NCBI GenBank assembly: GCA_001600815.1
Contig: BCKZ01000023.1
Coordinates: 310,001 to 333,041 of the forward strand
Reading direction: 5' to 3'
Source: Alloascoidea hylecoeti
Lineage: Eukaryota
DNA: 23,041 bases
The translations under genes and the position numbers were made by a program. Below, one piece after another: positions 2,705 to 23,041 of the stretch (positions within the stretch are counted from its first letter, which is position 1; every line of letters begins with the position of its first letter). The notes below the pieces were generated by a model. It searched no databases and was not told the DNA's origin. It worked only from the letters and a program-made list of their open reading frames with translations.

Positions 2705-3850
2705 TCAGAGAAATTCTTTACCGACCTGTTCCAACGCATTTGTCAGATCTTTAATCAAGTCCTCAACATTTTCAATCCCAACTGAAAATCGTAGCAAGTC
2801 ATGCTCCACAGTTGGATCAGACATTGCTCTCCATTCAACAAGTGATTCTACTCCTCCCAACGAAGTAGCATGATGAAATAATCTCAATTTCGAAGGAAGA
2901 TGTTTAGCCGCTTTCTTTGATTTCAATTTAATAGAAAATACTGGACCATAACCAATTGGTAGTTGCTTTTTAACGAATTCTTCAGTTTGTAATGAAGAAT
3001 GGTAAATTTCATCTATAATTGGTAATTTTTTAACATTGTTTTTTAAATATGAAACGACTTGAGTAGCATTAGAAGATTGAGTTTTAATTCTTATTTCAAA
3101 TGTTCGTAATGATCTTAAAAGAAAATGAGATTCTAAATTTCCAGTAATTGTACCCAATAGTAATCTCTGTTCAAATAATTTCTTTTTGATGGATAAATCC
3201 TTAGTGACCAATATACCAGCCAATAAATCAGAATGACCTCCAAAATACTTGGTAGCTGAATGCATAACCATATCCGCACCAAACAAGAAAGGGTCTTGTA
3301 GTGGTGGCGGAGCAAAAGTAGCATCGACCAACAAGTATGCACCTCTTCTATGAGCTTTATCAGCATAATGCTGGATATCAAAAGAGATCCCTGTTGGGTT
3401 GACTGGAGTTTCCAAATGAACAATATCTCCAGGTTGCAATTCCTCTTCCGGCGCATCTAATGGGATTTGTTTCAATCCATAGTTTTTGGTCAGAATATTC
3501 AATATTCCGTGGCATCCATGATAACCATCACCAATTGCTACGGTTTTTGGACTAAAATAAGTCATCGCAGCATAGAAAGAAGACAATCCAGATGAGTAAG
3601 CAATGACATGGGATCCTTCACCAAACACAGCCTCCAGGACTTTTTCAACTCTTTCTGTATTCGGGTGAGAAAAACGGGAGTAAATGAAACGATCCGAGAA
3701 ATCTTTTTTATCACAAGCAGGAACCAAATCATTAGGATCGTCAGGATATTTGTATGTTGTAGATACATCAATTGGAGATGCAATGTCAATGACTCGTGCA
3801 AGGGAGTCATCAGCATGGATTAAAAGAGAATTGAGGCCAAGATCACTCAT
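2705..3850 (-). CDS. Cys/Met metabolism PLP-dependent enzyme (cystathionine gamma-synthase/beta-lyase family), S. cerevisiae YHR112C-like; 381 aa
   Basis: Motifs YSRFSHPN, SSGLS, ETPVNP, VDATF, PLP-lysine motif HSATKYFGGHSD and HATSLGGVESLVEWR. The first ATG is at 3850 (MSDL); the ORF-track start at 3925 is a GTG. Confidence 0.93.
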   Translation of the reverse strand: MSDLGLNSLLIHADDSLARVIDIASPIDVSTTYKYPDDPNDLVPACDKKDFSDRFIYSRFSHPNTERVEKVLEAVFGEGSHVIAYSSGLSSFYAAMTYFSPKTVAIGDGYHGCHGILNILTKNYGLKQIPLDAPEEELQPGDIVHLETPVNPTGISFDIQHYADKAHRRGAYLLVDATFAPPPLQDPFLFGADMVMHSATKYFGGHSDLLAGILVTKDLSIKKKLFEQRLLLGTITGNLESHFLLRSLRTFEIRIKTQSSNATQVVSYLKNNVKKLPIIDEIYHSSLQTEEFVKKQLPIGYGPVFSIKLKSKKAAKHLPSKLRLFHHATSLGGVESLVEWRAMSDPTVEHDLLRFSVGIENVEDLIKDLTNALEQVGKEFL

Positions 3851-4415: not shown

Positions 4416-5765
4416 ATGTCAGAAATACCCAAAACAACAGAAACCGACACAGATTTTTTTTCACTATATGATCCGAAAACACTATACTTGCTGAAGAAGA
4501 AAAAGAAAAAGGATCAAAAAAAAAAGTATGTTTGATAAGATTCCCTAGTAAGTTAATTTTTTACTAATTCTGTTTCTTTAAATAGAAAGCATAAACATCC
4601 AAAATTATCTACAAAGTTATCTGTTAAATCTGAAACAGAAGGAACTTCAAATGATATCGAAATAATAAATAATAAAGAAAGCACAACGTCTGTTTTGAAT
4701 GCCTCGGCCCGGGTTAAAGTTGATGATGATGATTTAATAGTACTTGATTCTGATTCAAAACGTAAAAGCAAAAGCGAAAACAAAAGCGAAAACAAAAGCA
4801 AAAGCCCCGATTTAGATCAAAGTCTCGAACAAGAACTTGGGTTAACTCCATCTCCTGATGAAAATGATGAACCAAAAATCGATCTAGAACAAATTCGTCG
4901 AGAAATTAGAGAAAAGGCTCTAATATATGAAACTGATATGGAGGTTCAAAGAATGAAACTTCGTCAACAAAATCCAATATCAGCCTCACGGTATGATCAT
5001 GTTACTAAAAAACAAAAAGTATCCAAGAGTAAATCACCAACTGAAGAAGTTCCAATTTATCATACACTTATTGAGTCACAAGTTCCTTTCTCTTTTGGTA
5101 TAATTTATAATATTAAAATCAAAGCAAATCAAGAATTTAGTCGAATATTAAAAGGTTGGTTAAAACAAATTCAACATGATTTAACGTGTGAGGTTACAAA
5201 AGAAGAATTTTTACGTTTATATAATATAAATAATTTATGTCTTGTTTGGCAAAATACTGAAATTTTACCTTATGTTACACCTGCTTCATTGAAAATTGAT
5301 GATGGATTTGGTGATGTGAAATTAATTATTATGACTAGAGATGAATTTCATCGCCAAGATAATCAAAGACGTCAGGATGAAGAAAGAGAAAGAGAACTTA
5401 GAGAACTTGAAGATGAAGCTGAAACGTATACGCCTCCAGCTCGGAAAAAATCCATTGAAATAGCTTCTTCACCAACAAATAAGGATGGAACTACTAATTT
5501 ACCAAGAAATTCTTCGAATGATGAAGAACATGATGATTATTTTAGAGTAGTAATGAAAGGTAAAGATAATGACCCAATAGCAGTTCAAGTTAATCCAGAA
5601 ACCGTTATTTCAAAATTGGAAAATTATTATAAACAAAAGAAAAATATTCCTGCAAATATTAAAATTACTCTTTTATTTGATGATGATAAGCTGGAATCAA
5701 ATCAAAAAGTTGGTGATACTGAACTTGAAAATGATTTTACCATTGATGTTATAGTTGGTAAATAA
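4416..5765 (+). CDS. ESC2: Esc2/Rad60 (RENi) family SUMO-like domain protein; 2 exons, 429 aa
   Basis: join(4416..4525,4586..5765); 60-nt intron GTATGT...TACTAAT...TAG, in frame with the track ORF. It has an acidic/basic N-terminus, a SIM-like DDDDLIVLDSD and a C-terminal SUMO-like domain FRVVMKGKDN...LLFDDDKL...ELENDFTIDVIV. Confidence 0.82.
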
Positions 5766-6228
5766 AATGAAAAATAAGCTAAAATATTAAAAAAATTAAA
5801 AGTAGGAGTTATATAGGGAGGAAGAAAATTAAATCAAATTTAAATAGTTGAACAATGAAAAAGAATAATAATTTGTAACATCTTCTGGATATGTTTCTTA
5901 TATTTGGAGCTTTAATAATTTATCATACTTTTGAATATCCAGGATCCCTTAAATTTGTCGTGATGATTTTTGTTATTTATCTTCAATTTTATGATATAAG
6001 TTTATAGCTGAGTATTATTAGGAATTACAAATATCTGTATACATAACACTATTAATAAATTTATCTTGTTTAATATTTAATTTCATATGTTCTTAAAAAA
6101 AAATCAAACGTTTAACACGTGACTACTCTATTTGGTGTCAGTTTTCAACATACAATTTCTTTAAAGTTTATCATATAATAACAATTATCATCTTTTGCCA
6201 TTATTCATTAGACATTCAGTACTATATT

Positions 6229-7347
6229 ATGCTTTTATGGTCAATAGGTGCTTTTAATCTCTTTGCATTACTTCTTTTTATATCGGGAACAAGTGCTGGT
6301 GTTCCGGCAATTTTTCTATCTCATCGATTGTAAGTTTTTTTGTCATTCAATAACTATTTAGAGAAAAACAATTTTCAAATAGAGCGGGAGAATTTAAAAC
6401 TAATCTCTCTAAATTTTAGAGTCCCTGCTTTTCAACGACATATACCGGATCCAAAACCAAAACATTTTCCCCTTGGAACTCTTCAAACTTTAACACGTCG
6501 TCTAATTGCACCATGCTCTTCAAATGCTTATCTTTTAGTAAATCAACCTGGATTAAGACTCTCTGATCTAGATGATCTTAATTTACGTGAGAAGCGCGAT
6601 ATATTTACAAATTTCAGAGGTTATTTGGACCATGCTTCTACTAAATTAACCATTCCTAATATTGAAGATGATGGATTACTTGATTTTAAATCACTTGAAA
6701 AATATATCATTAGAAATTGTCAAGCTGAATTTGTACTAGTGGAAGAGGATCCTGATCATCTCCAAGATTACTTAGATACTAGGAAAAGAGTTATTAGAGT
6801 TAATCTACCTGAACTGCCTGAAAATGAATACCTACGAAAAGAAATCTTAAAAGAAAATGATGAATTATTACGAGATGTTATTCGAAAGATTCCAACTCCG
6901 TATCATAGCATCTACTATACTTCATTATCCCCTTCTACAGAATTTGAAGACATAAAATGGAATATCTCTCCATCAGATTCAGAAATTCCTAATCATATTT
7001 TTTCTGATATTACTGGTACAAAAGCATCCCGTTTAGAAATTGAAAAAAATAAACACGAAAGTAATGAGGAACAAAAACCTTATTTCCCTCCCCGTAGAAC
7101 TCATCTATTAAAACATGAAGAAAGTCCAACATTATTTGATAGAAAGTTAATTATGGAAAATGGTAATGTTATTGTTGGGATTTTCACGATGGGGATTATT
7201 GTAATTAGTTATCATATTACGAAAAAATTAAATATAATTACCAGTACTGTAAAGAAAGATATTCTAACGCAAGACAATGACGATAAAGAAGTTGAGGATA
7301 CTGAAAATAATAATGATACTGAAAAAGAAGAATACAAAGACAGATAA
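6229..7347 (+). CDS. BIG1: Big1-like ER membrane protein (beta-1,6-glucan synthesis); 2 exons, 342 aa
   Basis: join(6229..6329,6420..7347); 90-nt intron GTAAGT...ACTAAT...TAG. Exon 1 encodes a signal peptide plus VPAIFLSHRL. The motif CSSNAYLLVNQPGL matches Big1 (C..D.Y.F.NQPGL), and there is a C-terminal TM helix VIVGIFTMGIIVISY. Confidence 0.85.
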
Positions 7348-7670
7348 TGTATTTAGAGATCTTATATAGGAACACATAATATTATTGTCAGTTATATGTG
7401 AGGCAGTATGATTGATGATGTTAAAGAAATATAATCCTTAAAAAGCAGAGTAGTTAATTACCACTTATGGTCGATTAATTTTCCACACGTTCGCTATGTT
7501 TCTATTTTTTTCCTTCAAAAATAACACTGTATTAATTTCAATTGTAGAGTTGGAATCTACATTTTGTTAGTACTGCAAGCTGCTACTTTTCCATTTATTC
7601 CATCAACTCAACCAGTTGGAGCTTGGAACCTACAGTAATTAAAAGCAAAGTAACGGGATTCTTCAGAATG

Positions 7671-8225
7671 CATCTCGATTGACTTTTTAATCAAGTGTTG
7701 TGTTTATTTTGGTTGACAACCTTTTCTCCATCATTGCAAGGTGTAATATATCTTATTAATCTTCATCTTCATAAATATCAATTGCAAATAGATATTTACT
7801 TGTGATCTATTGGAACATCATGCATCCGATGGACCACATTATCACAGGGGTAAGTCCATCCTGTTCCAAGTATAACCATAACCTCAGGAGCTTGATTGAA
7901 ATACTTGCTGAGGAGGAGTTCATTCATATTAATCAAACCATGGCTCTTATTGGTTTTGGTCTGTCTATATTTGAGAGATAAGATCATCCTCAGCAGGTAT
8001 TTCAATCAAGCTCCTGAGGTTATGGTTATATTTGGAACAGGATGGACTTACCCCTGTGATAATGTGGTCCATCGGATGCATGATGTTCCAATAGATCATA
8101 AGTAAATATCTATTTGCAATTGATATTTATGAAGATGAAGATTGATAAGATATATTACACCTTGTAATGATGGAGAAAAGGTTGTCAATCAAAATAAACA
8201 CTTGATCAAAAAGTCAATCAAGATG
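7671..8225. repeat. Long inverted repeat (arms 7671-7914 and 7987-8225, 72-bp spacer)
   Basis: Block-by-block comparison of the arms shows 8 substitutions plus one 5-nt indel over ~240 bp. Confidence 0.97.
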
Positions 8226-8450
8226 AATCCAAAAGCTTTTCGAGACTTTTTTTTTTTTGATTATGATCCAACTAAAATAATAGCAATTGGAGTTTAATGA
8301 TGTAGCTGTAGTAATTGTAGTGATTGCTAAAGAGCAAGGGGTAAATGCTGAACAAAACCTTTCAAAAGAGAGGTTCTTCTAGACTGACATATACTATCAC
8401 ATAGTGGATATGATCACAAACGAGAAGCGATAATACGATTATTTATGGAC
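7935..8450 (+). pseudogene. Fragmentary pseudogene of the divergent CLK/LAMMER kinase (subdomain VII towards the C-terminus); part of it is mirrored on the minus strand at 7671-7914
   Basis: Frameshifted pieces are collinear with the 20561-21928 kinase: ALIGFGLSIFE (TLIDFGLAVLE), HPQQV, NQAPEV, GTGWTYPCD, MWSIGCMMFQ, HLVMMEKRLS, FDYDPT, SKERF. It carries stops and indels. Both ends are approximate. Confidence 0.88.
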
Positions 8451-8769
8451 CGCCTTTCTACCTATTAATGGCGCTATTTACGAAAATAATTAGGGAAAGT
8501 CTGAGAGTTACTTCGCTATATTTTTGTAAATTAGAATCGTATTTAGCGATCTGCCTGGATAAGTTGTACTTCTCACTGTTCTCAGACAATTAACTAGTGA
8601 TGTGTGTCAAATATAATATCGACTCTGCTGAAATTAGATTACCCAGACATTTGAAGATTAATTAAAAAGAGAACACAATTAGCATTGTGCCAATATTTTT
8701 CTTTCGTGACTTAAACTTATATAGTAATGGCTTACCCAACTCTAGTTTTTGTACATTCTCAATTTTATC

Positions 8770-9733
8770 ATCCTAGTAGGTACCAGTTGTTGCATCATCA
8801 CCATAATTTGGTTTTAATACCATCGATATCTTATCAATATTACATTTCTTGTAATAGTCCGATAAGATACTTGGGCTGATCATTAACTGGTAAATAGAAG
8901 AACCTCGAGCTCTAATATCTTTTGATCTCAGAAATCATAATTAGACATAAAACCAGTAGTACAGGCACATGAGAAAATTCCAAAATAATGAAGACAACCA
9001 GTAAGACTGCTTAGAACAAAGAATAAGTTATAGAAAATCTTAAGGTTGACAGACGAGAAATAGATTGATAGCAGTCGGAATGAGTGAAGGCAAACGAATG
9101 GCCCACAGACAGCTAAATAATACCCCTATATTGAAAATGTTTTTGAAGTATTTAAACATAGATTTCCCTAATTTAATATAATAACAATCTCAAAGAAGTC
9201 ATAAGCACTTCTAGATTATATCATTATTTCAGTACCTTCCAATAAAGATCATCAGAATTATTCCTAACATGATATACAATATATTTTGCAACAATAAACT
9301 TAAATAAAATTAAACAATGAAATACGCCAACAACTTTAAACTCAATTAACTTTAAATTACTTGCAGTTACTGATTTTCTTGCAATGACTTGATAAACCAT
9401 AGCTAGCGGCGTAGCCGCTGGTGAGATCACAAAAGCTATAGATAAAGGTAGTGATGATTACGTTCAATTTTTTTCTTTATAACTTCGTTAAATAAGATAT
9501 CAAACATTTATACGTGTAATTAGCAGAAGTCATATACATGAATACCACAGGTTATTATTAATGGGGATACAAAGTCAACGTTATTCATTCTCTAAATTCC
9601 ACTTTACTGTGCTCTCAAATGGTGAAATAACTTGAATAGTCACCAATTTAGGAAAACTCTATATACAGATCGAGACATCATCTCTTTTTTATAATGAACT
9701 CCTGCAATTTCACTTCATAATCAATACAGCCAT
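8770..9733 (-). pseudogene. Heavily decayed MFS sugar-porter (Lac12/cellodextrin-permease-like) pseudogene
   Basis: Collinear remnants in different frames: VVFMYMTSANY (TM1-like), KVVGVFHCLILFKFIVAKYIVYHVRNNSDDLYWK (TM5 and loop), LHYFGIFSCACT and ISEI..KDIRARGSSIYQL (post-TM10 SEI..RARG motif). Recognised by eye only; boundaries approximate. Confidence 0.5.
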
Positions 9734-10641
9734 TATTTAATTTCATCCGCCAGACACTAATGTTCGGCCGTGTTGATAAATAATTGCAGGACACTCCTTC
9801 ACTTATTAATCATTTAAAAATTTCAAACTATAAGTTATAGGCCTTACATAAGTCTGAAAACTTACCATAGAGTGTAGAAAAAGTAATAGGTTAAGGGGTG
9901 GCTGATAATCTGTAACGAGAAAGCCGAACATTTAGTGTATCAAATAAACATATATTTAGTTTGGAAAATGCCGAATATACAGCCAACATATGGCCGAAAT
10001 TAAGTGTAGTGGCTATATTTAAACTTTGAATGCGTCACAAATATCAACTAGCATCATTTACAATTTTCAATTCATATCCGACTCATCCCATAAATTAAAT
10101 GACCCATTTGGCCAATAACAAGAAGGCTATAGTAATACAAAATTACAATGAAGAGCTACTCGTGAGATCCCACCAGTAATATGTTAGCATATCATAATCT
10201 ACAATAATCTACTGGGAGTAATTATGATATTGTTTAATTATAGCCAAACTGGCGTAATATGCATATAATAATTATAATATCAAGCCATCTTCTTGATGAT
10301 AATACAATATAATGACCTCATATATTTGTAATGCAGTTGTAAGCTCCAATTGTCTGGTTGAAAGAATAAAATACACATATAAAGTATTTATGATAAATTT
10401 TTATAACTTTTATAGGCCTATATGTATAGTAACATTGTATACCTATATTCTAGACGATAAGTAAAAATCAAAGCTGTAGTTGCTAGGAACATCTACAAGT
10501 TAAACCAAGGAATTATGTATGATTGTATGATGAAGAAGTATAAATAAATACCCTTTAAATATTTAAAAGAGAAGAGCCATACGATCCGCAATATTGTTTG
10601 ATGAGATTGACCAATAAGAAGTTAAGTATTAATAAGCAGTT

Positions 10642-11110
10642 TCATGTTCTTCTTTCTCTTCTGGTGATGACCCCTAAGGTATACTCTAAATCTATTATGG
10701 AATAAAATTAATATTGATGCCTTATTCCATTAACACGCCGTACCAACAGTTGTAGAAGTATAAAGAAACGTACCTGGAACAATTACAACTTCATAGTTAG
10801 ATGTTGTAACCCTTACCAAATTCAATGGATCACCATGGTGCTTGTTGTCTGTAGGTTCAGCGGCATCTATATTATCTGAATCATTTGGCTCAAAACCAAC
10901 CCTGCTCAATTGCTGTGCCTGTAGAACGAGCTGTTTCGCGTGGTTTATGAAAATGAGAAGATCCTTTTCATTGACAGTAGCTGAAAATATCTGTCGATGA
11001 ATAGTAGACAGATCATCAGACGAAAGGACAAAAAGCGCAAGTAGAGGCTTGTTCGAGGAAGATACCAATTCGTTTATCTTAGTCTCGTACGATGGGGTAG
11101 CTACAGACAT
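10642..11110 (-). CDS. Roadblock/LC7-family protein (dynein light chain roadblock-like); 2 exons, 128 aa
   Basis: join(11110..10774, 10691..10642); 82-nt intron GTACGT...TAG. Splicing gives the C-terminus DPLNLVRVTTSNYEVVIVPDLEYTLGVITRR, matching the roadblock pattern D.L..LR.RT...E..I.PD..Y.L.V. Confidence 0.75.
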
Positions 11111-11340
11111 ATTTGGCCCAAAATGCAAAAGGAAGGTGCAACGGTCGGAGGCAAAGTGTATGGGTGTGATCGCCGCTTCATATTCCTTGAAGCAAGATAA
11201 ACTTTAAATATCGGGTGATTTTAGGCTTCGAAACTTACGTTTAAATTTAATAAGGAAAATATATAAGCCACCAAATATCGTGCTTTTTTCTTTCGTTAAA
11301 TATATTTCTTCAAGAACATAAAAATAAACAATATAAAAAT

Positions 11341-11511
11341 ATGGCCGCTCACAAACTCATCACTAGATCGTTTACATCAGGAACTCAAAACTCTATGAAG
11401 CGATTAACATCTAAATATATCACACTTGCATATTTAACCCTCGGTATTACAGTTCCCTTTGCTCTGCCTCTGAAAACAACACTGGAGAGTCACAATGAAC
11501 AAAGGAGGTGA
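11341..11511 (+). CDS. Putative 56-aa single-pass microprotein, possibly mitochondrial
   Basis: ATG in A-rich context (AAAAATATGG), with TATATAA ~80 bp upstream. Sequence MAAHKLITRSFTSGTQNSMKRLTSKYITLAYLTLGITVPFALPLKTTLESHNEQRR has a basic, acid-free N-terminus and one hydrophobic segment. Not in the ORF track; no family recognised. Confidence 0.5.
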   Translation: MAAHKLITRSFTSGTQNSMKRLTSKYITLAYLTLGITVPFALPLKTTLESHNEQRR

Positions 11512-12218
11512 GACTCTTCATGCTTAAGTGAAGTACTTTTTCAAATATGGACTCAAATATGAACTCAACATTTTCATATTTTATTCTTATGTTGCATTAT
11601 GGCGCTGCAGTGCAGGTCTTTCGTTTTGATATAATATAATGGCGCATGTTTATGACTATCTATATGGATCACTACAATAGGTTTTATTTATCGCAATTGT
11701 TTCTTGTTTTGGTTTTTATCCTTCCATGGTGGATTGAGTTTGATTTATTGCAAACGGAGTTTCTTTATAAAGCCTATGATTATAAAGATGTTAACTATTA
11801 TATAATTAACTCTATTCATGAAAATAATAAAAATGGCCTGATAATCTTTCTTTCATAAATACTTCTTAATTTTTTAATAAATTCATATGCATGTTAGATA
11901 TTTGACAAAACCAACTTAAGCCCTTTGATTTTAAATCCGGGATATAAAAAAAATAAACTACGAGTAGCTTTTATTATCGAGATGGAACAAAGATATATTG
12001 AACTGTAACAAATGTTCCCATTTATTTTTAACTTTACGTATAATTTCAATTAATTATGTGTATTCCGCCTAAGGTTATTCTTTCTATAAGTTCTTGCAAT
12101 TGACTTATCTTTCTTCGTTATCTCTTCATTTGTTCCTTTAGCTTGACTTTTAAAAACAAATTTCGCATACGGTTGCATATAAATGATCCAAAAGAAGAAA
12201 GAATTTCATAAAAGCAAA

Positions 12219-12292
12219 GGTCTCTTGGCCCAGTTGGTTAAGGCACCGTGCTAATAACGCGGGGATCAGCAGTTCGATCCTGCTAGAGACCA
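12219..12292 (+). tRNA. tRNA-Ile (anticodon AAT/IAU)
   Basis: 74-nt cloverleaf GGTCTCT...AGAGACCA, anticodon loop CTAATAA, T-loop TTCGATC, Pol III terminator TTTTT at 12295-12299. Confidence 0.98.
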
Positions 12293-12299
12293 TCTTTTT

Positions 12300-12700
12300 C
12301 TAGATCCCTATTTCTTCCTCTGTAAAAAGATCCCAGCAGTTTTTTCATCCTGCTTCAGTACTCTTTTTATTACGTTTTTCTGGCCAATCTGGAATAATGG
12401 GGTTCAGTTTAGCCTTAATGGCCACTTCAAAAAAAAAAAAGTTACATAAATCTTGGAAGGGGTTTGAAAACAACTTTTTTTTGGTTTTTTTTATCACACT
12501 CTTATTATCAACTGTCACATTATCTTATTCTCAATTTATTGATATTAATCTTATCCATTCCTAACCCACGTTTCATTTACTCACACTTATTTATCCTTCT
12601 TAACTTTATGACTTTACTTCTTATTACACACATTTTCTATTTATCCGTTTTGACATAAAGAGAACTAATATTGCCGCTCATTTATAAATCAACATAGCTA
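12300..12700 (+). mobile_element. Possible degenerate LINE 3' end just downstream of tRNA-Ile copy 1
   Basis: An ATG-less open frame contains LFITFFWPIWNNGVQFSLNG, resembling the L1 ORF2 terminal W.IW..RN...F motif. Weak, single-motif evidence. Confidence 0.3.
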
Positions 12701-13019
12701 TTAATAAAATACAATTCATGTCATCTTTGACTTCCAATAGTTCTACCCCAACTTCTTCCAATGGTGGCGGAGCTACCATTTCAGGTAGTTAATACTCTGT
12801 ATTGATATTATATAACATTGACTTTACAAATAATGATTCTACACAGCATATAATAACAATACAAAATATTAACTACCTGAAACCTACTATCCTAGCCTTC
12901 TGTTAATTCATCAACAGCTTTCAAATATATATTCTATGTTTTATTATCATCACTTTTATGAAGTGTTCCCTTAGGAGGTATTGGTAATCTATAAATTTCT
13001 TAATATGAATATAGATTTT

Positions 13020-13590
13020 ATATTTACAAAGGGGATGATACCAATAGTACATTGTAGTCACCTTTCCAGATGTCTATGGCTTGCAACTTTATATTCAGAC
13101 AAGCTCTAGCCTTGTAAAGTTGCTAAATCATTGCCATTTGATTGTCTTCAAGAAACAAAACAATCATACAGAAAGTTTGTAGTCCCTCGCCATATTCATT
13201 GGGATTTGATGGATCAGGTTGCTAGGCCTTAGTTCTTGACGTGTTTCTAGAGCTTTTGTACTTATTGACGGTTTAAGGTTCCTTTATAATTTCCTGTATT
13301 TGGGATTTTTTAATGGGCAAGATTGCGTTTGATAGTTCAGTTTAAAAAAGTTTAAAGCTTTTAAGCATTCTCTTACGAATATTATACTAATGATTTGATT
13401 ACGTATAGAATCTTTAATAAGTTGGTCAACATCTGATTTCGAAATAGGTGTTTCTAGGTGGTAGAATCCTTTCCTTATTTTCTTTTCATAATTATGGATA
13501 AAAAGACCTTTATTTTACTTTTTTTTGTACTTAATCATTTTAATGTAAATTGTACTAGCTGATCAATAGCTGAATAAAAAGAATTAAAGA
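13020..13590 (-). mobile_element. Stacked short LINE 3'-terminal remnants
   Basis: Minus-strand peptides KALETRQELR (~13228-13258) and NKGLFIHNYEKKIRKG (~13465-13515) resemble KNGAFIKKALELRKNIR at the end of the 14305-15081 ORF2. 13519-13584 is a diverged copy of the A-tailed 3' end at 13597-13664. Confidence 0.45.
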
Positions 13591-13596
13591 AAAGTG

Positions 13597-14150
13597 TTTT
13601 TTTTTTCACCTAATCATTTTATTATAAATTATACTTGCTAATCTATAAGAGGATAAAAAGAATATTTGAATAATTTTATATATATAACAAAGGTTTAAAT
13701 ACCTGTGTGGTAAAACCAAGTCTGATATCATATCTAATATGATCAACTACTTTATTTGTATTTCAGAATTAATTTATGTTTTTCCATTTTCGCAAACTTG
13801 ATAATTGAAGAGGACTTGTTAAATCAATAGAACTAAAGCGTCTAAGGACCAGTATATTCCATATTACCTCCACAGTAAGGCATATGTGCTTTATAAACTG
13901 AGAATCTTCCAAGGATGGATAAATCAAATCATTCAAGCATAGACTTTTCCAATAAGAGAGTTAAAAATATTGTAGTTTTTATTGGACAGCTATTAAAGAC
14001 ATGTTCTTCCGTTCCAGTACCGTTTTGTAAGCATAGGATACATTTGTCTAACTTACCATTTGATTGATCCACTGCCGGGGAGTCTAATGATGAGTGTGAT
14101 GTCTAAGATTAAAAGGATGTAAAAAATCTACGGACCCCGGATCAATGAAA
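13597..14150 (-). mobile_element. 5'-truncated, degenerate L1-like non-LTR retrotransposon (ORF2 C-terminus + 3'UTR + A10 tail)
   Basis: DPGSVDFLHPFNLRH, a CCHC knuckle KCILCLQNGTGTEEHVFNSCP (13983-14045) and EVIWNILVLRRFS, with frameshifts between them. A-tail at 13597-13606. Confidence 0.75.
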
Positions 14151-14176
14151 TTAAAAATTTAAAAGTTCACAAAAGA

Positions 14177-14250
14177 TGGTCTCTAGCAGGATCGAACTGC
14201 TGATCCCCGCGTTATTAGCACGGTGCCTTAACCAACTGGGCCAAGAGACC
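14177..14250 (-). tRNA. tRNA-Ile (anticodon AAT/IAU), identical to the copy at 12219-12292
   Basis: Exact reverse complement of copy 1, followed by TCTTTT on its own strand. Confidence 0.98.
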
Positions 14251-14304
14251 TTTACGGTTCTTTTTCGACCTTTCATATATTTTACTATTAAATTATATAA
14301 CTAG

Positions 14305-15305
14305 AGAATAGGTGATTTATTAAATAATACCAACCTAAGTTTACACTCAGTTATTCCAGTAAATCCGAGCAATAAGTTTAAAGGGAGATTAATTACATAC
14401 TTGAAAGCGTGGAGAGTAATAATAAATAACACAAAACTAAGAAATATACCAACTACTGAAACGGTACCAAAACTGACAAATGAAGCGTTACAAAAACTGG
14501 TAGAAAACCCAGGAGGAGAAGATATCGAAAAAAGAATAAAAGACATGGAAGAAGAAAACATATCCAAATACTCGATTAAATCAATAAGCCAAAAGTGGTA
14601 TAATAAAAACAAAATTATATTGAAACCAAGCAAATGGATGCAGTTAATTCCGGAACTAAAAAATGAAAATTGGAAGAAATGGTGGGGATTTATCAAAGAC
14701 ACATATAAGGAACACCCTGAGGAGACACAATGGATATATTTCCTCAGCTTGGGATATGTTACTCATATGCTACATCATAACAAAAAAGCAAAACAATGGT
14801 GGCAAAAATCTGATATTTGTAGTTTATGTCGACAAGGTAAAGACGACATATTACATCTATTTGAAGATTGCTCAACAATAAGAATACTAAAGAAGTTGAT
14901 GTTAGGAAGCGAAAGAATTGGGATCAAATTATTGATCATAAATATAGAAGATAACAATATAGAAAAAAATGGGGCTTTTATCAAAAAGGCACTAGAGCTA
15001 AGAAAAAATATTAGATTTACAGGGACACCACCACAAATATTAAATGTGATTGATTGGGGGCGGGGGGATTCTAATATCTAAAAACTTGAAAAAGTAAAAA
15101 ATATCTAAAAAAAAAAAAAATTATTTTAAAGGTGGTCTAGGTACATAAGAAGAGAAGAAAGAAGAGTGTCAAGAATACACAAAAATAAGAAGAATAGAAA
15201 GAGAGGTTTTTATTTCACTATATATAGTAGAGATTTCCTCAGAATTTACATAGTTTCTAGTTATGTAATTTAATTGGAAAATATATGAAAAGTTAAAAAA
15301 AAAAA
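14305..15305 (+). mobile_element. 5'-truncated L1-clade-like LINE (Zorro/Ylli-type): uninterrupted ORF2 C-terminal portion + 3'UTR + A-tail
   Basis: The frame is open from 14305 to the stop at 15081 with no initiating ATG. It includes YLKAW, WKKWW and a zf-RVT-type CCHC motif CSLCRQGKDDILHLFEDC (14818-14871). The purine-rich 3'UTR ends in A11 at 15295-15305. A related second copy lies at 15737-16505. Confidence 0.85.
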
Positions 15306-15625
15306 GATACTGTAAAGTTAAAAAAAAATATTCTATTCCTGAAACACATTTCACAGTTCTTGAAATAGCTCAATTCGGGGATATATACATATTGTATTTC
15401 ATTCTTACCGCACATTTAATATCTTATTATGTTTACTACTTCTAGGACTTTCTATATTAATAGCTGTTAGATTGATCTATATAAACATAAGATGAATCCC
15501 ACTTTAAAGGGAATTAAGTAAGTTTTAATACACTTTTTATCTTGATCTTAATAAGCCGAGTATCTGTTGATTTAGATACCTAAGTAAGTTATTAACTAGT
15601 TCCAACGCTTACTTTACAGTGAGAA

Positions 15626-15735
15626 TGTAAAGGAACTCATTATTCGACTATTCTTTGATTATTATTTCTTGTCTATATTAGGATGTAGTAAAGAAATAAT
15701 AATCAAAGAATAGTCAAATAATGAGTTCCTTTACA
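15626..15735. repeat. Short inverted repeat (45-bp arms, 20-bp spacer, 1 mismatch)
   Basis: 15626-15670 pairs with 15691-15735; the only mismatch is C15645/A15716. Confidence 0.95.
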
Positions 15736-15736
15736 C

Positions 15737-16505
15737 TTTAACCTTTTATATATTTTTTCAATTAAATTATATATATGGTGAAATAAAAATCTCTTTAACC
15801 ATTCTTCTTATTATTTTTGTATATTCTTGATATATCACTCTTCTGTTCTTATATTTCTTTACCTAGACCAAAGTAATTACTTTTTTTTTATTTTTTTACT
15901 TTTTTATTTTTTTATTTTTTGAAAAAAACCCCATTTTATTCTTTTTTCGATATCTTCTCCTGCTGGGTTTTCTACCAGTTTTTGTAACGCTTCATTTGTC
16001 AGTTTTGGTACCGTTTCTGTAGTTGGTATAATTCTTTTTTTTGTATTATTGATAATGGATTTCAAGTATGTAATCAATCTTCCTTTAACTTATTTGGAGT
16101 TAATGATATAACTGAGTCTAAACTTAGGTTGGTATTATTCAATAAATCATCTATCAAAATATTATACCATTGATAATTCAACTCTGTATGATGATTATCT
16201 CTTGAGTTTCCTGATTTTTACTTACTGCTTCCTTTAATTTTGGAGCATACATATGGATTTATATGTTTACATCCCTCTATGACCATAATATCTTTAACTA
16301 ATTGTTGTTTTATCAGTTTAATTATTTTATTTTTTCAAATTCAGCATTGAATTCTTAAAATGGGAACACTAAGATAAGTCAGATTCTTCAGATCTTCTGT
16401 TTTATAATTTAAAGCTGATTTGAATATTCGATCTTCTCTTCTCCTTTGACTTTCATCATTGAAATAAAATTTGTACAATTTTGATTGATTTACTCGCTTC
16501 ATGTC
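15737..16505 (-). mobile_element. Degenerate, internally deleted second copy of the same LINE family, inverted relative to 14305-15305
   Basis: 15934-16155 is a reverse-complement homolog of 14308-14541, and 15737-15930 matches the 3'UTR. About 0.5 kb including the CCHC motif is missing. Further 5' there are late RT-domain remnants MKRVNQSK and LTYLSVPI (the L..N..K and YLG.P motifs). Confidence 0.82.
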
Positions 16506-19200: not shown

Positions 19201-19334
19201 CGAAGGTTCTAGATATCTTTCTATACCTCCGTACACCCGATTGTCGTGATTGAATATTACTTCTAAACTAACCAACTTAGTTAGCTAGAATTTTCTACTT
19301 AGATAGTAGTTTACTTTTGAGATGAGTATATAAA
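19201..19334 (+). promoter_or_regulatory. Heat-shock elements and TATA box of the Hsp20 gene
   Basis: cGAAggTTCtaGAt at 19201-19214, aGAAttTTCt at 19287-19296 and TATATAAA at 19327-19334, which begins 117 bp before the ATG. Confidence 0.7.
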
Positions 19335-19443
19335 GACAGGTTATAGCCCTTAAATACTTATTGGTTTTCATAATAATAATCATACCTTCTTACAATTACA
19401 CATTATTACAAGCAACATAAATATTAAATTATAACAATTATAA

Positions 19444-20560: not shown

Positions 20561-21928
20561 CTAAATTCCCATCGTGAACCATTCATGTTGTAATGCCTCT
20601 TCAGCAGTTATTCTTTTTGAAGGATCAATCGTAAGTAACTTTTTAAGCATATCTTTCATCGAATCTATAAATATGATTTCAGATTGATGTCTAGGTTTCC
20701 TTAAAAATGATGATTTAATTCCATCGAATACCTCATCTATACTTTCAGTTTCTGAAAACCGCTCTTTTGATTGTGACGATGAATCTGTATTTGGGAAATT
20801 TAGAACATATGGAAAGGTTACTCCACTTTCAGTCGGATCATAATCAAATACAAAATACTGAGATGCTTCTGATCTTTTTTGGATTGATTTTGCAATCATC
20901 TTGGGATCTATTTTTTTACTGAGCCTTTTTTCAATCATTGCAAGGTGCACGTCATCCTCATCTTCGCATATATCGAATAGTACTTGGCCAGTGATTAATT
21001 CGAACATCATACATCCTATTGACCACATGTCACAAGGATACGACCATCCTGTCCCAAGGATGACCTCAGGAGCTTGGTTGAGCAGACAAGACACCCTCTG
21101 AGGATGGCCTTCATTTTCCAACACAGCTAAACCAAAATCAATAAGAGTGACAGAAGAATCTGCTAAAAGCTTTCTTTTAGTCATTCCACTATCATGAACA
21201 AAGAATGAATTTGAATTGTTGAGTAATATGTTATCCAACTTCAGATCGGTATGGACTATCCCCGAATTGTGTACAAATGATATGGAACTAATCAACTGCT
21301 CCATCATCGATTGGACTTCTAACAAATTATAAGAACTAGCCATCACAGTATAAGGATTTAGATCATACTGAGTAATAGTTTTAGCCATATATGTATCCAA
21401 GTTGTCCCCCAACAAGTCGGACACAATACATATATGTCCCTTAAATACAAAACAATCTTTAATTTCCATACATCCATTTTGTTTGGATTGACCATCCCGG
21501 GATAGTTTTAATAAAATTCTAATTTCTTTTAAGATATTTAAAATAGTAAACTGTGTATTGTGATTGGAACTTGAAAGTATTGATTTGGATATTTTAATAG
21601 AGACATATTCTTTTGTTTCCGTATCATAAGCAGAAGTAACTCTTCCAAAACATCCTTGTCCCAGAATATTTTGAATTATATATTTTTGCGAAAACACAGA
21701 ACCTTTTTCTATAATATAATGGCCTTCATTATCATCACTGTATGTGTCATTGGTGCTAGTATGAGGGTCGTCTAGTGTTCTGATACTAGTTAATATTGCT
21801 CGAAGTTGAGTTGTTTGGGCATCCTCATCCAGAGTGATCTCATCATATTGCCATTTACTTTTTGGTAATAACTTTATAGCGACTGCCAGTGGAAGTGAAT
21901 CGAAATAATTATTGGAAACAGTAGTCAT
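20561..21928 (-). CDS. Divergent CLK/LAMMER (Kns1/Lkh1-related) protein kinase; 455 aa, intronless
   Basis: DDNEGHY pre-domain motif, LGQGCFG, VSIK, HTDLKLDNILL, DFG, APEVILGTGWSYPCDMWSIGC, VHLAMIEK (EHLAMMER box) and DPSKRITAEEALQHEWF. Confidence 0.92.
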   Translation of the reverse strand: MTTVSNNYFDSLPLAVAIKLLPKSKWQYDEITLDEDAQTTQLRAILTSIRTLDDPHTSTNDTYSDDNEGHYIIEKGSVFSQKYIIQNILGQGCFGRVTSAYDTETKEYVSIKISKSILSSSNHNTQFTILNILKEIRILLKLSRDGQSKQNGCMEIKDCFVFKGHICIVSDLLGDNLDTYMAKTITQYDLNPYTVMASSYNLLEVQSMMEQLISSISFVHNSGIVHTDLKLDNILLNNSNSFFVHDSGMTKRKLLADSSVTLIDFGLAVLENEGHPQRVSCLLNQAPEVILGTGWSYPCDMWSIGCMMFELITGQVLFDICEDEDDVHLAMIEKRLSKKIDPKMIAKSIQKRSEASQYFVFDYDPTESGVTFPYVLNFPNTDSSSQSKERFSETESIDEVFDGIKSSFLRKPRHQSEIIFIDSMKDMLKKLLTIDPSKRITAEEALQHEWFTMGI

Positions 21929-22224
21929 TTTCGGAGATTGATTTTAGTTAATTAGAAACAAATTTATTGTCTAATTGTATGTGGCTCTAAATAATATATT
22001 ACTATTTGAGCTCTCTTTTGAAAGTGCGAAATAGAAAGGATGGAGGAGTGAAAAGATTTTCATACTTAATCCGGGCTAATAATGAGAGTATGATAGTTAA
22101 AGATTCCTAATTAATCATATGCTGATATATTGATCTTCGAAATGGTTCTATCGATGAAGTTCTTGATTCTATGTGCAACCTTCTTGTTTGGGTTTTAGCT
22201 TTATATATGCATACTGTTATATCT

Positions 22225-22251
22225 TATGCATATGCGCACACACACACACAC
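22225..22251. repeat. 27-nt alternating purine-pyrimidine tract including (CA)7 in the palindrome spacer
   Basis: TATGCATATGCGCACACACACACACAC read directly. Confidence 0.9.
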
Positions 22252-22514
22252 TCAAACAAGAAAGTTGCACATAGAATCAAGAACTTCATCGATAGAACCA
22301 TTTCGAAGATCAATATATCAGCATATGATTAATTAGGAATCTTTAACTATCATACTCTCATTATTAGCCCGGATTAAGTATGAAAATCTTTTCACTCCTC
22401 CATCCTTTCTATTTCGCACTTTCAAAAGAGAGCTCAAATAGTAATATATTATTTAGAGCCACATACAATTAGACAATAAATTTGTTTCTAATTAACTAAA
22501 ATCAATCTCCGAAA

Positions 22515-23041
22515 ATGACTACTGTTTCCAATAATTATTTCGATTCACTTCCACTGGCAGTCGCTATAAAGTTATTACCAAAAAGTAAATGGCAATATGA
22601 TGAGATCACTCTGGATGAGGATGCCCAAACAACTCAACTTCGAGCAATATTAACTAGTATCAGAACACTAGACGACCCTCATACTAGCACCAATGACACA
22701 TACAGTGATGATAATGAAGGCCATTATATTATAGAAAAAGGTTCTGTGTTTTCGCAAAAATATATAATTCAAAATATTCTGGGACAAGGATGTTTTGGAA
22801 GAGTTACTTCTGCTTATGATACGGAAACAAAAGAATATGTCTCTATTAAAATATCCAAATCAATACTTTCAAGTTCCAATCACAATACACAGTTTACTAT
22901 TTTAAATATCTTAAAAGAAATTAGAATTTTATTAAAACTATCCCGGGATGGTCAATCCAAACAAAATGGATGTATGGAAATTAAAGATTGTTTTGTATTT
23001 AAGGGACATATATGTATTGTGTCCGACTTGTTGGGGGACAA
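22515..23041 (+). CDS. Second copy of the divergent CLK/LAMMER kinase (5' part; cut by the window edge)
   Basis: ATG at 22515; translates MTTVSNNYFDSLP...HICIVSDLLGD, identical to the first 175 aa of the minus-strand copy. Absent from the ORF track because no stop is reached. Confidence 0.9.
   Translation, partial: MTTVSNNYFDSLPLAVAIKLLPKSKWQYDEITLDEDAQTTQLRAILTSIRTLDDPHTSTNDTYSDDNEGHYIIEKGSVFSQKYIIQNILGQGCFGRVTSAYDTETKEYVSIKISKSILSSSNHNTQFTILNILKEIRILLKLSRDGQSKQNGCMEIKDCFVFKGHICIVSDLLGD

What the first reader, a model, noticed from the sequence alone, without database searches (positions are those of the whole stretch)
7671..8225. Kinase-pseudogene hairpin whose core mismatches are all G:U-compatible: candidate hairpin-RNA (endo-siRNA) locus
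Seen: the 215-bp core stem (7700-7914 with 7987-8201) has six substitutions: G7712/T8189, G7736/T8165, T7757/G8144, G7802/T8099, G7870/T8031 and T7905/G7996. All six form G:U pairs in a plus-strand transcript, so the RNA would be paired without interruption. The two A:C mismatches lie outside, beyond a 5-nt bulge. The stem derives from the kinase family encoded intact ~12 kb away, and BIG1 ends 323 bp upstream on the plus strand, so read-through could transcribe it. Known: hairpin RNAs made from gene fragments silence paralogs (e.g. Drosophila hpRNAs), and some budding yeasts retain Dicer/Argonaute. Inference: a dsRNA source regulating an expanding kinase family. Caveats: 6/6 has chance 1/32 for either strand, the core boundary was chosen after looking, and 6/8 overall is unremarkable. 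Identity to the local intact gene is modest (longest exact run I see is 14 nt, CAAGCTCCTGAGGT), so closer targets would have to lie elsewhere.
Basis: partly seen in the sequence, partly recalled or inferred. Interest (0 to 1): 0.8.

Follow-up and report, generated by a model that had tools for sequence, protein, structure and literature searches.

The report
Dead kinase-gene inverted repeat in yeast
A real, roughly 245-base-pair inverted repeat made of a dead kinase gene sits in a budding-yeast genome; it would fold into double-stranded RNA if transcribed, but it looks more like the recently re-copied centre of an old head-to-head gene pair than a proven small-RNA gene.

Summary
Arms 7700-7917 and 7984-8201 pair over 218 nt with 7 mismatches. 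Six are G:T on the + strand, at exactly the stated positions; one is G:A beside the 66-nt loop. Past a 5-nt bulge, 27 more nt pair with 3 disruptive mismatches. Contigs of public runs from three studies carry the repeat with the same arm differences, so it is not an assembly artefact. Both arms are fragments of a LAMMER/Kns1-like kinase and share frame shifts and stops.

Further out, the arms differ from each other as much as each differs from the intact kinase (27/47 against 30/46 and 30/44), whereas the core is 211/218 alike. The intact kinase 12 kb away also lies in a near-perfect head-to-head palindrome.

My reading is an old, decayed head-to-head kinase pair whose inner 245 bp was recently copied arm to arm. 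The G:U pattern is suggestive only: two-sided P is 0.002-0.04 for the core and 0.03-0.33 for the whole stem.

Transcription, small RNAs and Dicer/Argonaute could not be tested. About 79% of surveyed budding yeasts are predicted to lack RNAi. The local kinase is not a plausible target, with 14 nt the longest exact match. The hairpin-RNA reading keeps about 0.25.

The parts
7635..7667 (-). Old, diverged outer part of the left (antisense) kinase pseudogene copy, corresponding to about aa 352-363 of the intact kinase
   Evidence: The tblastn HSP for kinase aa 338-363 runs to 7635. The translation shows kinase-like residues. It is only 27/47 identical to the right copy's outer part, and 30/44 to the intact kinase.
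7668..7694 (+). Outer stem segment, left side. It pairs with 8202-8228: 24 of 27, with mismatches G:A, C:A and A:C.
7695..7699 (+). 5-nt bulge; it reads as a 5-nt tandem duplication in the left arm
   Evidence: Gap in the alignment; sequence read and alignment A1
7700..7917 (+). Left arm of the core inverted repeat: antisense copy of kinase aa about 283-352
7918..7983 (+). 66-nt loop or spacer. It is kinase sequence (the region after the DFG motif, aa about 257-282) that belongs to the right, sense copy only.
   Evidence: tblastn HSP for aa 257-279 at 7931-7999; translation
7984..8201 (+). Right arm of the core inverted repeat: sense copy of kinase aa about 283-352, carrying the same frame shifts and stop codons as the left arm
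8202..8228 (+). Outer stem segment, right side
8229..8277 (+). Old, diverged outer part of the right kinase pseudogene copy, up to about aa 367; it includes a T12 run
   Evidence: The blastn match to the intact kinase runs to 8277. Local alignment score is 22, against a maximum of 21 in 200 shuffles.
6340..7347 (+). The frame has no early ATG, so a 5' intron is likely.
20561..21928 (-). Intact LAMMER/Kns1-like kinase gene (455 aa), the closest relative of the hairpin arms that I could find
   Evidence: Pfam Pkinase E 5e-41; named hits Lkh1/KNS1; best of 121 kinases against the hairpin
21402..23041 (.). Near-perfect palindrome (arms 21402-22193 and 22250-23041, 790 of 792 complementary, 56-nt spacer) holding two head-to-head copies of the intact kinase. 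It has the same head-to-head topology as the hairpin and runs off the window end.

Best explanation
The hairpin is the inner, recently homogenised part of an old, dead head-to-head pair of LAMMER-type kinase genes. It is a decayed counterpart of the intact kinase palindrome 13 kb to its right.

Both copies were already pseudogenes. The central part of the pair is missing, that is, both promoters and roughly the first 256-282 codons. About 245 bp next to the new centre was copied from one arm to the other, by arm-to-arm gene conversion or by fold-back or template-switch repair that was captured by the old homologous copy. Since then the arms have gained 10 substitutions and one 5-nt duplication.

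On this reading the near-identity of the arms is a DNA-level result, not a result of selection on an RNA. The six G:T mismatches are a small-sample pattern made mostly of C-to-T changes on the + strand. The locus has no demonstrated function, although any transcript across it would fold into about 245 bp of dsRNA.

Shown: the structure, the pseudogene origin, the two layers of divergence, the presence in independent samples, and the parallel intact palindrome. Inferred: the copying mechanism, the central deletion and the neutrality.
For: 1. Two layers of divergence.
- In the core the arms are 211/218 alike, but only 144/196 and 146/196 alike to the intact kinase.
- In the next 27 nt the arms are 24/27 alike.
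- In the outer, still kinase-derived zone they are 27/47 alike, no closer than each is to the intact kinase (30/46 and 30/44).
- Mismatch density is 10/245 inside against 11/27 just outside (Fisher P 2e-7).

2. Both arms share the same frame shifts and in-frame stops, so dead sequence was copied.

3. Both gene copies read away from the centre, as in the intact pair 20561-21928(-) and 22515-23039(+). That pair's arms are 790/792 complementary with a 56-nt spacer.

4. Other inverted repeats crowd the same window: a tRNA-Ile pair, and retroelement-like fragments that include a 60-nt pair with a 4-nt spacer.

5. The loop is kinase sequence of the right copy only, as expected after an asymmetric central loss or a fold-back event.

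6. Contigs from three studies carry the repeat with the same arm differences. One metagenome strain differs at 5 of 2887 flanking sites, so the repeat is older than the split between strains.

7. Both RNA strands fold into near-perfect hairpins (-434.7 and -412.2 kcal/mol), so selection for G:U over A:C would have little to act on.

8. No plausible siRNA target is in view.
Against: - All six interior mismatches of the core keep pairing in a + strand RNA. None is A:C, and the only disruptive mismatch of the 218-nt arm lies 3 pairs from the loop. Other inverted repeats in the window show no such bias (10 G:T, 9 A:C, 22 transversions); Fisher P is 0.0036 for the core.
- The disruptive mismatches sit at the two ends of the stem, as selection for an uninterrupted duplex would predict.
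- Polarisation with the intact kinase gives four C-to-T changes and possibly one A-to-G on the + strand. Such a mix would fit wobble-preserving selection better than a single deamination process. The A-to-G call lies beside an alignment gap, so it is unsafe.
- The sharp outer boundary of arm identity could also mark the edge of a selected duplex.
- Neutrality is inferred, not shown.
Confidence: 0.58

Rival explanations
1. Hairpin-RNA (endo-siRNA) locus. The repeat is transcribed on the + strand, for example by read-through from BIG1 or from its own promoter. The transcript folds into about 245 bp of dsRNA, and a budding-yeast Dicer cuts it into 22-23-nt siRNAs that load into Argonaute. The siRNAs may act on a closer kinase paralog elsewhere in the genome. 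Selection for an uninterrupted duplex lets only wobble-compatible substitutions persist in the stem interior.
For: - The + strand RNA stem runs without interruption from the bulge to near the loop, MFE -434.7 kcal/mol, z -35.
- Six of 7 mismatches in the 218-nt arm are G:U on the + strand (two-sided P 0.002-0.04; Fisher 0.0036 against other local repeats).
- The disruptive mismatches are confined to the stem ends.
- Precedent: in Naumovozyma castellii, palindromic loci give 74.1% of the 22-23-nt reads that map to siRNA loci (passages of PMC7528652).
- Engineered G:U hairpins are diced and silence well (passages of PMC9263138).
- The repeat is kept with the same arm differences in samples from three studies.
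Against: - RNAi genes, transcription and small RNAs are all untested.
- The base rate is low: 906 of 1154 Saccharomycotina strains are predicted to lack RNAi.
- The only relatives in view share at most 14 exact nt, and 20/23 in the best 23-mer. No kinase above 41% identity to the intact gene turned up in the protein collection.
- The - strand hairpin is nearly as stable, so the advantage of G:U is small.
- Over the whole stem only 6 of 10 mismatches are G:U (P 0.03-0.33), and the core boundary was chosen after looking.
- Arm identity is explained by DNA copying.
Confidence: 0.25
2. Strand-coordinated C-to-T damage. The six G:T mismatches are a cluster of cytosine deaminations on the + strand while it was single-stranded. 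That could happen during resection after breaks at the palindrome, or on the non-transcribed strand of a + sense transcript. No selection on RNA pairing is involved. This is a sub-variant of the neutral reading and explains only the polarity.
For: - Four of the six sites polarise as C-to-T on the + strand, in both arms (7905, 8031, 8099, 8165). The other two are compatible with C-to-T if the gap-adjacent call at 8144 is set aside.
- Other repeats in the window show no strand bias (10 G:T against 9 A:C), so the effect is local to this palindrome.
- Recalled, not checked here: long inverted repeats are break-prone in yeast, and single-stranded DNA deaminates faster.
Against: - Alignment A1 polarises 8144 as A-to-G.
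- The outer stem carries a T-to-C change at 8207 (an A:C mismatch) and T-to-G changes.
- The dinucleotide contexts are mixed: C before T twice and C before A twice.
- Four events on one strand has only P 0.125.
Confidence: 0.1
3. Assembly or sequencing artefact: a fold-back chimera or collapsed repeat, with the arm differences being errors.
For: - Inverted repeats break short-read graphs. Contigs of all the runs break inside the arms, and two 147-nt contigs are arm chimeras.
- The window's other palindrome runs off the window end.
Against: - Contigs of runs from three studies, isolate runs X1 and X4 and metagenome runs X2 and X5, cover the arm ends, the loop and the flanks without differences. 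Each of the twelve arm-specific bases is seen in at least one run.
- The loop and flanks are unique, kinase-derived sequence.
Confidence: 0.02

Closest known systems
Palindromic siRNA-precursor loci of Naumovozyma castellii (passages of PMC7528652, which cites Drinnenberg et al. 2009; the 2009 paper was not held)
   Same: Both are endogenous long inverted repeats in a budding-yeast genome whose transcript would be a long stem-loop. In N. castellii such loci are the most prolific siRNA sources.
   Different: Here nothing shows transcription, small RNAs or the presence of Dicer and Argonaute. The organism is a different, unannotated lineage: its best named protein hits are only about 60% identical, and it reads CTG as Leu.
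Drosophila hpRNA genes and plant proto-MIRNA inverted duplications of target genes (recalled, not read here)
   Same: A gene fragment duplicated in inverted orientation gives a hairpin related to a paralogous gene family.
   Different: Those hairpins keep long stretches of near-perfect identity to their targets. This one is 66% identical to the only relative in view, and dead sequence was copied.
Engineered G:U hairpin-RNA transgenes (abstract and passages of PMC9263138)
   Same: C-to-T changes disrupt the DNA inverted repeat while G:U wobble keeps the RNA duplex intact. At least four of the six changes here are C-to-T on the + strand.
   Different: The constructs change every cytosine of one arm (18-26% of positions). 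Here 6 of 218 positions differ, spread over both arms, and no benefit is shown.
Gene-bearing DNA palindromes kept alike by arm-to-arm gene conversion, such as primate Y-chromosome palindromes (recalled)
   Same: Both have head-to-head gene copies and arms far more alike than their age predicts. The intact kinase palindrome in the same window is 790/792 alike, and the hairpin core is 211/218 alike beside outer zones that are 27/47 alike.
   Different: The scale differs, hundreds of bases rather than kilobases to megabases. Here the genes are dead and the centre has been lost.

Membership tests
hpRNA / palindromic endo-siRNA precursor locus | A long inverted repeat able to form an extended, nearly perfect intramolecular RNA duplex | tested here: met
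   218 + 27 paired positions with a 66-nt loop. MFE is -434.7 kcal/mol on the + strand and -412.2 on the - strand.
hpRNA / palindromic endo-siRNA precursor locus | A single transcript spanning both arms | not testable with these tools
   No RNA data could be laid on the stretch. The promoter scan offered is bacterial.
hpRNA / palindromic endo-siRNA precursor locus | Dicer-dependent small RNAs of 21-23 nt mapping to the arms | not testable with these tools
   No small-RNA data are available. Logan contigs cannot hold reads of 22-23 nt.
hpRNA / palindromic endo-siRNA precursor locus | The host encodes Argonaute and a Dicer or Dicer-like RNase III | not testable with these tools
   No whole genome is held for the window. 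Only a base rate is available: 906 of 1154 Saccharomycotina strains are predicted to lack RNAi.
hpRNA / palindromic endo-siRNA precursor locus | A trans target with near-perfect complementarity to the siRNAs | tested here: not met
   Within the window, the longest exact match is 14 nt and the best 23-mer is 20/23 against the intact kinase. The genome-wide test was not possible.
Gene palindrome homogenised by arm-to-arm copying | Two copies of one gene in inverted orientation around a short spacer | tested here: met
   Both arms match kinase aa about 283-363 on opposite strands.
Gene palindrome homogenised by arm-to-arm copying | Arm identity far above that of adjacent homologous sequence, which is a conversion-tract signature | tested here: met
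   Core 211/218, middle 24/27, outer 27/47. The outer arm-to-kinase identities are 30/46 and 30/44. Fisher P is 2e-7.
Gene palindrome homogenised by arm-to-arm copying | Present in independent samples, so not an assembly artefact | tested here: met
   Contigs of runs X1, X4, X2 and X5, from three studies.
LAMMER (Kns1/Lkh1/CLK-type) protein kinase pseudogene | Homology to the kinase catalytic domain of that subfamily | tested here: met
   The intact local gene hits Pfam Pkinase at E 5e-41, and its named hits are Lkh1/KNS1. The hairpin matches it by tblastn with E about 1e-16, and it is the best match among 121 kinases.
LAMMER (Kns1/Lkh1/CLK-type) protein kinase pseudogene | A disrupted reading frame | tested here: met
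   The homology jumps between three frames and crosses several stop codons in both arms.

The most novel reading that the evidence does not exclude
This is a natural G:U-type hairpin-RNA gene in an unstudied, RNAi-competent budding-yeast lineage. A dead kinase palindrome has been co-opted as an endo-siRNA precursor. Selection keeps its about 215-bp duplex uninterrupted by admitting only wobble-compatible (C-to-T, A-to-G) substitutions. Those substitutions also blunt the DNA palindrome, as in engineered G:U hairpins. Its siRNAs would act on a closer kinase paralog elsewhere in the genome.
Probability: 0.08. Interest if true: 0.7.

Novelty: new member of a known kind. Interest (0 to 1): 0.33.

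Why it matters
If the hairpin yields siRNAs, it would extend endogenous palindromic siRNA loci, studied so far mainly in Naumovozyma castellii, to another budding-yeast lineage. It would also give a natural example of wobble-only divergence between hairpin arms.

If it is what it most likely is, a partly re-homogenised relic of a kinase-gene palindrome, it is an ordinary piece of genome decay. It still illustrates, next to an intact copy, how gene palindromes lose their centre yet keep their inner arms alike. It also shows how such relics can mimic selected RNA hairpins.

Tried and rejected
- Whole-genome search for DCR1/AGO1 and for closer paralogs: not possible, because no genome is held.
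- RNA evidence: no RNA holder was listed for 7300-8700. Only DNA contigs were laid.
- Strain comparison: the two apparent variants at 7802 and 8099 are 147-nt contigs that mix the two arms, not polymorphisms. No real difference was seen in the covered parts of the hairpin.
- Orthologous or related loci: a metagenome scan with the BIG1-like protein matched 254 patterns but confirmed no relative. A scan with a 24-nt hairpin pattern gave 0 matches.
- Earlier findings of this scan: nothing by place, by sequence or by words.
- Rfam: its only match in the window is a tRNA; nothing lies at the hairpin.
- Drinnenberg et al. 2009 could not be read, neither by PubMed id nor by PMC id.
- RIP-like mutation was considered and rejected. 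The four polarised C-to-T changes lie before T twice and before A twice, and mismatches are few.
- A regional strand bias in mutation was rejected, because other local inverted repeats show 10 G:T against 9 A:C.
- Assembly artefact was rejected.
- A closer parent among 120 database kinases was rejected, because the local kinase is the best match to the arms (109 bits against 83 for the next).
- CUG reassignment was rejected. The 3 CTG codons of the PLP enzyme all fall in hydrophobic columns, so the organism is not in the CUG-Ser or CUG-Ala clades. This did not narrow its RNAi status.

Full report
**1. The observation**

The repeat finder reports arms 7700-7917 and 7984-8201: 218 nt, 97% complementary, 66 nt apart.

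A base-by-base check and a gapped alignment give the full anatomy:
- 7668-7694 pairs with 8228-8202: 24 of 27.
- A 5-nt bulge lies at 7695-7699. It reads as a tandem 5-nt duplication in the left arm.
- 7700-7917 pairs with 8201-7984: 211 of 218.

The two A:C mismatches beyond the bulge are also present. Over the 245 aligned pairs there are therefore 10 mismatches: 6 G:U-type, 2 A:C and 2 transversions.

**2. Is it real DNA?**

Contigs of four public runs were laid on 5000-11000. They were two isolate runs of the coded organism A, dated 2016 and 2023, and two runs of a wood-decay metagenome; together they come from three studies.

The contigs break inside the arms, as expected for a de Bruijn graph at an inverted repeat. 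Pieces without any difference cover:
- the left flank up to 7787,
- 7758-7961,
- the loop with both neighbouring arm ends (7875-8026),
- and 8114 onward.

Two 147-nt contigs each carry one 'difference', at 7802 and 8099. They are mixtures of the two arms, not variants. The metagenome strain differs from the window at 5 sites in 8114-11000, so it is another strain, yet it carries the same hairpin. The repeat is not an assembly artefact, and it predates the split between these strains.

**3. What the arms are**

The ORF at 20561-21928 (- strand, 455 aa) is a protein kinase (Pfam Pkinase, E 5e-41). Its best named relatives are Lkh1/KNS1-type dual-specificity kinases, and none exceeds 41% identity.

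tblastn of this protein hits both arms on opposite strands (aa about 283-363, E about 1e-16). It also hits the loop on the right-hand copy only (aa 257-279). blastn aligns 7944-8277 to the gene at 66% identity over 348 nt. Among 121 kinases tested, the local one is the best match to the hairpin (109 bits against 83 for the next).

In both arms the homology jumps between three reading frames and crosses several stop codons at the same places. The sequence that was duplicated was therefore already a pseudogene, or one dead arm overwrote the other.

**4. Two layers of age**

The kinase homology continues beyond the stem on both sides, to about 7635 on the left and 8277 on the right. There the arms are no longer alike.

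Identities in alignment A1:

| Zone | Arm to arm | Right arm to intact kinase | Left arm to intact kinase |
|---|---|---|---|
| Core | 211/218 | 144/196 | 146/196 |
| Next 27 nt | 24/27 | 16/27 | 16/27 |
| Outer zone | 27/47 | 30/46 | 30/44 |

In the outer zone the two copies are as far from each other as each is from the intact gene. Mismatch density is 10/245 inside the stem against 11/27 immediately outside (Fisher P 2e-7).

A single inverted duplication followed by neutral decay would not give this step. It fits an old inverted pair whose inner 245 bp was recently copied from one arm to the other.

**5. The parallel 13 kb away**

The intact kinase is itself one half of a palindrome. Arms 21402-22193 and 22250-23041 are 790 of 792 complementary, lie 56 nt apart and are limited by the window end. 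The palindrome holds two head-to-head copies of the gene.

The hairpin has the same topology: both copies read away from the centre. What it lacks is the centre, meaning both 5' flanks and the first 256-282 codons. The loss is asymmetric, because the right copy keeps aa 257-282 as the loop.

The window also holds other inverted repeats: a 100% identical tRNA-Ile pair, and several pairs among retroelement-like fragments, one with a 4-nt spacer. This stretch evidently generates or tolerates inverted duplications.

**6. The G:U pattern**

Counting all mismatch types needs a per-mismatch probability of a + strand G:U outcome. I took 0.24 from five other inverted repeats in the window (10 G:T, 9 A:C and 22 transversions among 41 mismatches). 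I took 0.40 for a strongly transition-rich spectrum, since 4 of the 5 strain differences are transitions. The two-sided probabilities are then:
- 0.0004-0.008 for 6 of 6,
- 0.002-0.04 for at least 6 of 7, the whole 218-nt arm,
- 0.03-0.33 for at least 6 of 10, the whole stem.

Fisher tests against the control repeats give 0.0036 for the core and 0.054 for the whole stem. The control repeats are older, and some may be partly chance alignments, which inflates their share of transversions.

The pattern is therefore suggestive. It depends on a boundary chosen after looking, and it rests on six events. There is no regional strand bias to explain it (10 G:T against 9 A:C in the controls).

*Polarisation.* With the intact kinase as outgroup:
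- Four sites are C-to-T on the + strand: 7905 in the left arm, and 8031, 8099 and 8165 in the right arm.
- Site 8144 polarises as A-to-G, but it lies beside an alignment gap.
- Site 8189/7712 cannot be polarised.
- The four C-to-T changes lie before T twice and before A twice, so there is no RIP-like context.

All-C-to-T would fit deamination of a single-stranded + strand. A mix with A-to-G would fit wobble-preserving selection. The data cannot separate the two.

**7. Would G:U matter?**

As RNA, the + strand of 7630-8265 folds to -434.7 kcal/mol with an uninterrupted stem. The - strand folds to -412.2 kcal/mol with six single-base A:C interruptions. Both are far beyond shuffled controls. A duplex with one mismatch every 35 bp or so should still be a good Dicer substrate; this is inference from general knowledge. 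Any selective advantage of G:U over A:C is therefore likely to be small.

**8. Could it be an siRNA locus?**

*The kind is known.* In Naumovozyma castellii, inverted-repeat (palindromic) loci are the most prolific siRNA sources, giving 74.1% of the 22-23-nt reads that map to siRNA loci in wild type (passages of PMC7528652). Engineered G:U hairpins are diced and silence well in plants (abstract and passages of PMC9263138).

*RNAi is patchy in budding yeasts.* This is stated in passages of PMC5499181. A survey of 1154 genomes predicts that 906 lack functional RNAi (passages of bioRxiv 10.1101/2025.04.25.647736; its supplement was not seen).

*The organism.* It could be placed only broadly. Its cystathionine-type PLP enzyme is at most 63% identical to any other protein in the collection. 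The best named hits, about 60%, are spread over Kuraishia, Komagataella, Scheffersomyces, Priceomyces and Pachysolen. Its three CTG codons fall in hydrophobic columns, so it uses the standard reading.

*Untested.* No genome is held, so Dicer and Argonaute are untested. No RNA data could be laid, and no related locus was found.

*Targets.* Within the window the arms share at most 14 exact nt with anything else, and 20 of 23 in the best 23-mer against the intact kinase. The protein search found no closer family member. Coverage of this organism in that collection is uncertain, and the intact kinase itself was not returned at 100%.

**9. Verdict**

The structure and the mismatch pattern are confirmed.

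The best-supported account is a DNA-level one: an old, dead head-to-head kinase pair that lost its centre and had its inner 245 bp re-copied arm to arm. It sits next to an intact palindrome of the same family that shows the same homogenisation at work (confidence about 0.58).

The hairpin-RNA reading remains open at about 0.25 for 'yields siRNAs', and at about 0.08 for the full story of a selected, wobble-preserving regulator of kinase paralogs. A strand-coordinated C-to-T cluster is a further explanation of the polarity alone (about 0.1).

Whichever holds, the feature belongs to known kinds, so I rate the interest as modest.

Noticed in passing
window 21402-23041: A near-perfect palindrome (790 of 792 complementary, 56-nt spacer that includes a CA-repeat run) holds two head-to-head copies of the intact LAMMER-like kinase. 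Its arm length is limited by the window end, so the true extent is unknown. The intact kinase was not returned at 100% by the protein collection, possibly because short-read contigs break in this palindrome.
   Followed up: partly
window 12216-12298 and 14171-14253: Two tRNA-Ile(AAU) genes lie in inverted orientation within 83-nt, 100% identical arms 1.9 kb apart. Rfam at gathering threshold listed only the second one.
   Followed up: no
window 13929-16154: A cluster of degenerate fragments carries sub-threshold zf-RVT matches (E 0.047 and 0.022, both below Pfam's cut-off) and several mutual inverted repeats, including a 60-nt pair with a 4-nt spacer at 15619-15742. These may be remnants of a non-LTR retrotransposon.
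   Followed up: partly
window 8230-19440: About 11 kb holds only one small ORF (10730-11110, no family) at a uniform GC of about 30%. Short segments at 8454-8492, 8977-9037 and 9085-9160 recur on other contigs of the same runs, so they are dispersed repeats.
   Followed up: no
window 6340-7347: The BIG1-like frame is open for 335 codons, yet its ATG-initiated ORF is under 80 codons, so it was absent from the ATG-start list. The start codon probably lies in a short upstream exon, which implies a 5' intron.
   Followed up: no
window 2705-3850 and other ORFs: CTG is rare (0-5 per ORF). In the PLP enzyme it falls in hydrophobic columns at 3 of 3 sites, so the organism reads CTG as Leu. No annotated relative is closer than about 60-63% for this conserved enzyme, which points to a poorly sampled yeast lineage.
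   Followed up: partly
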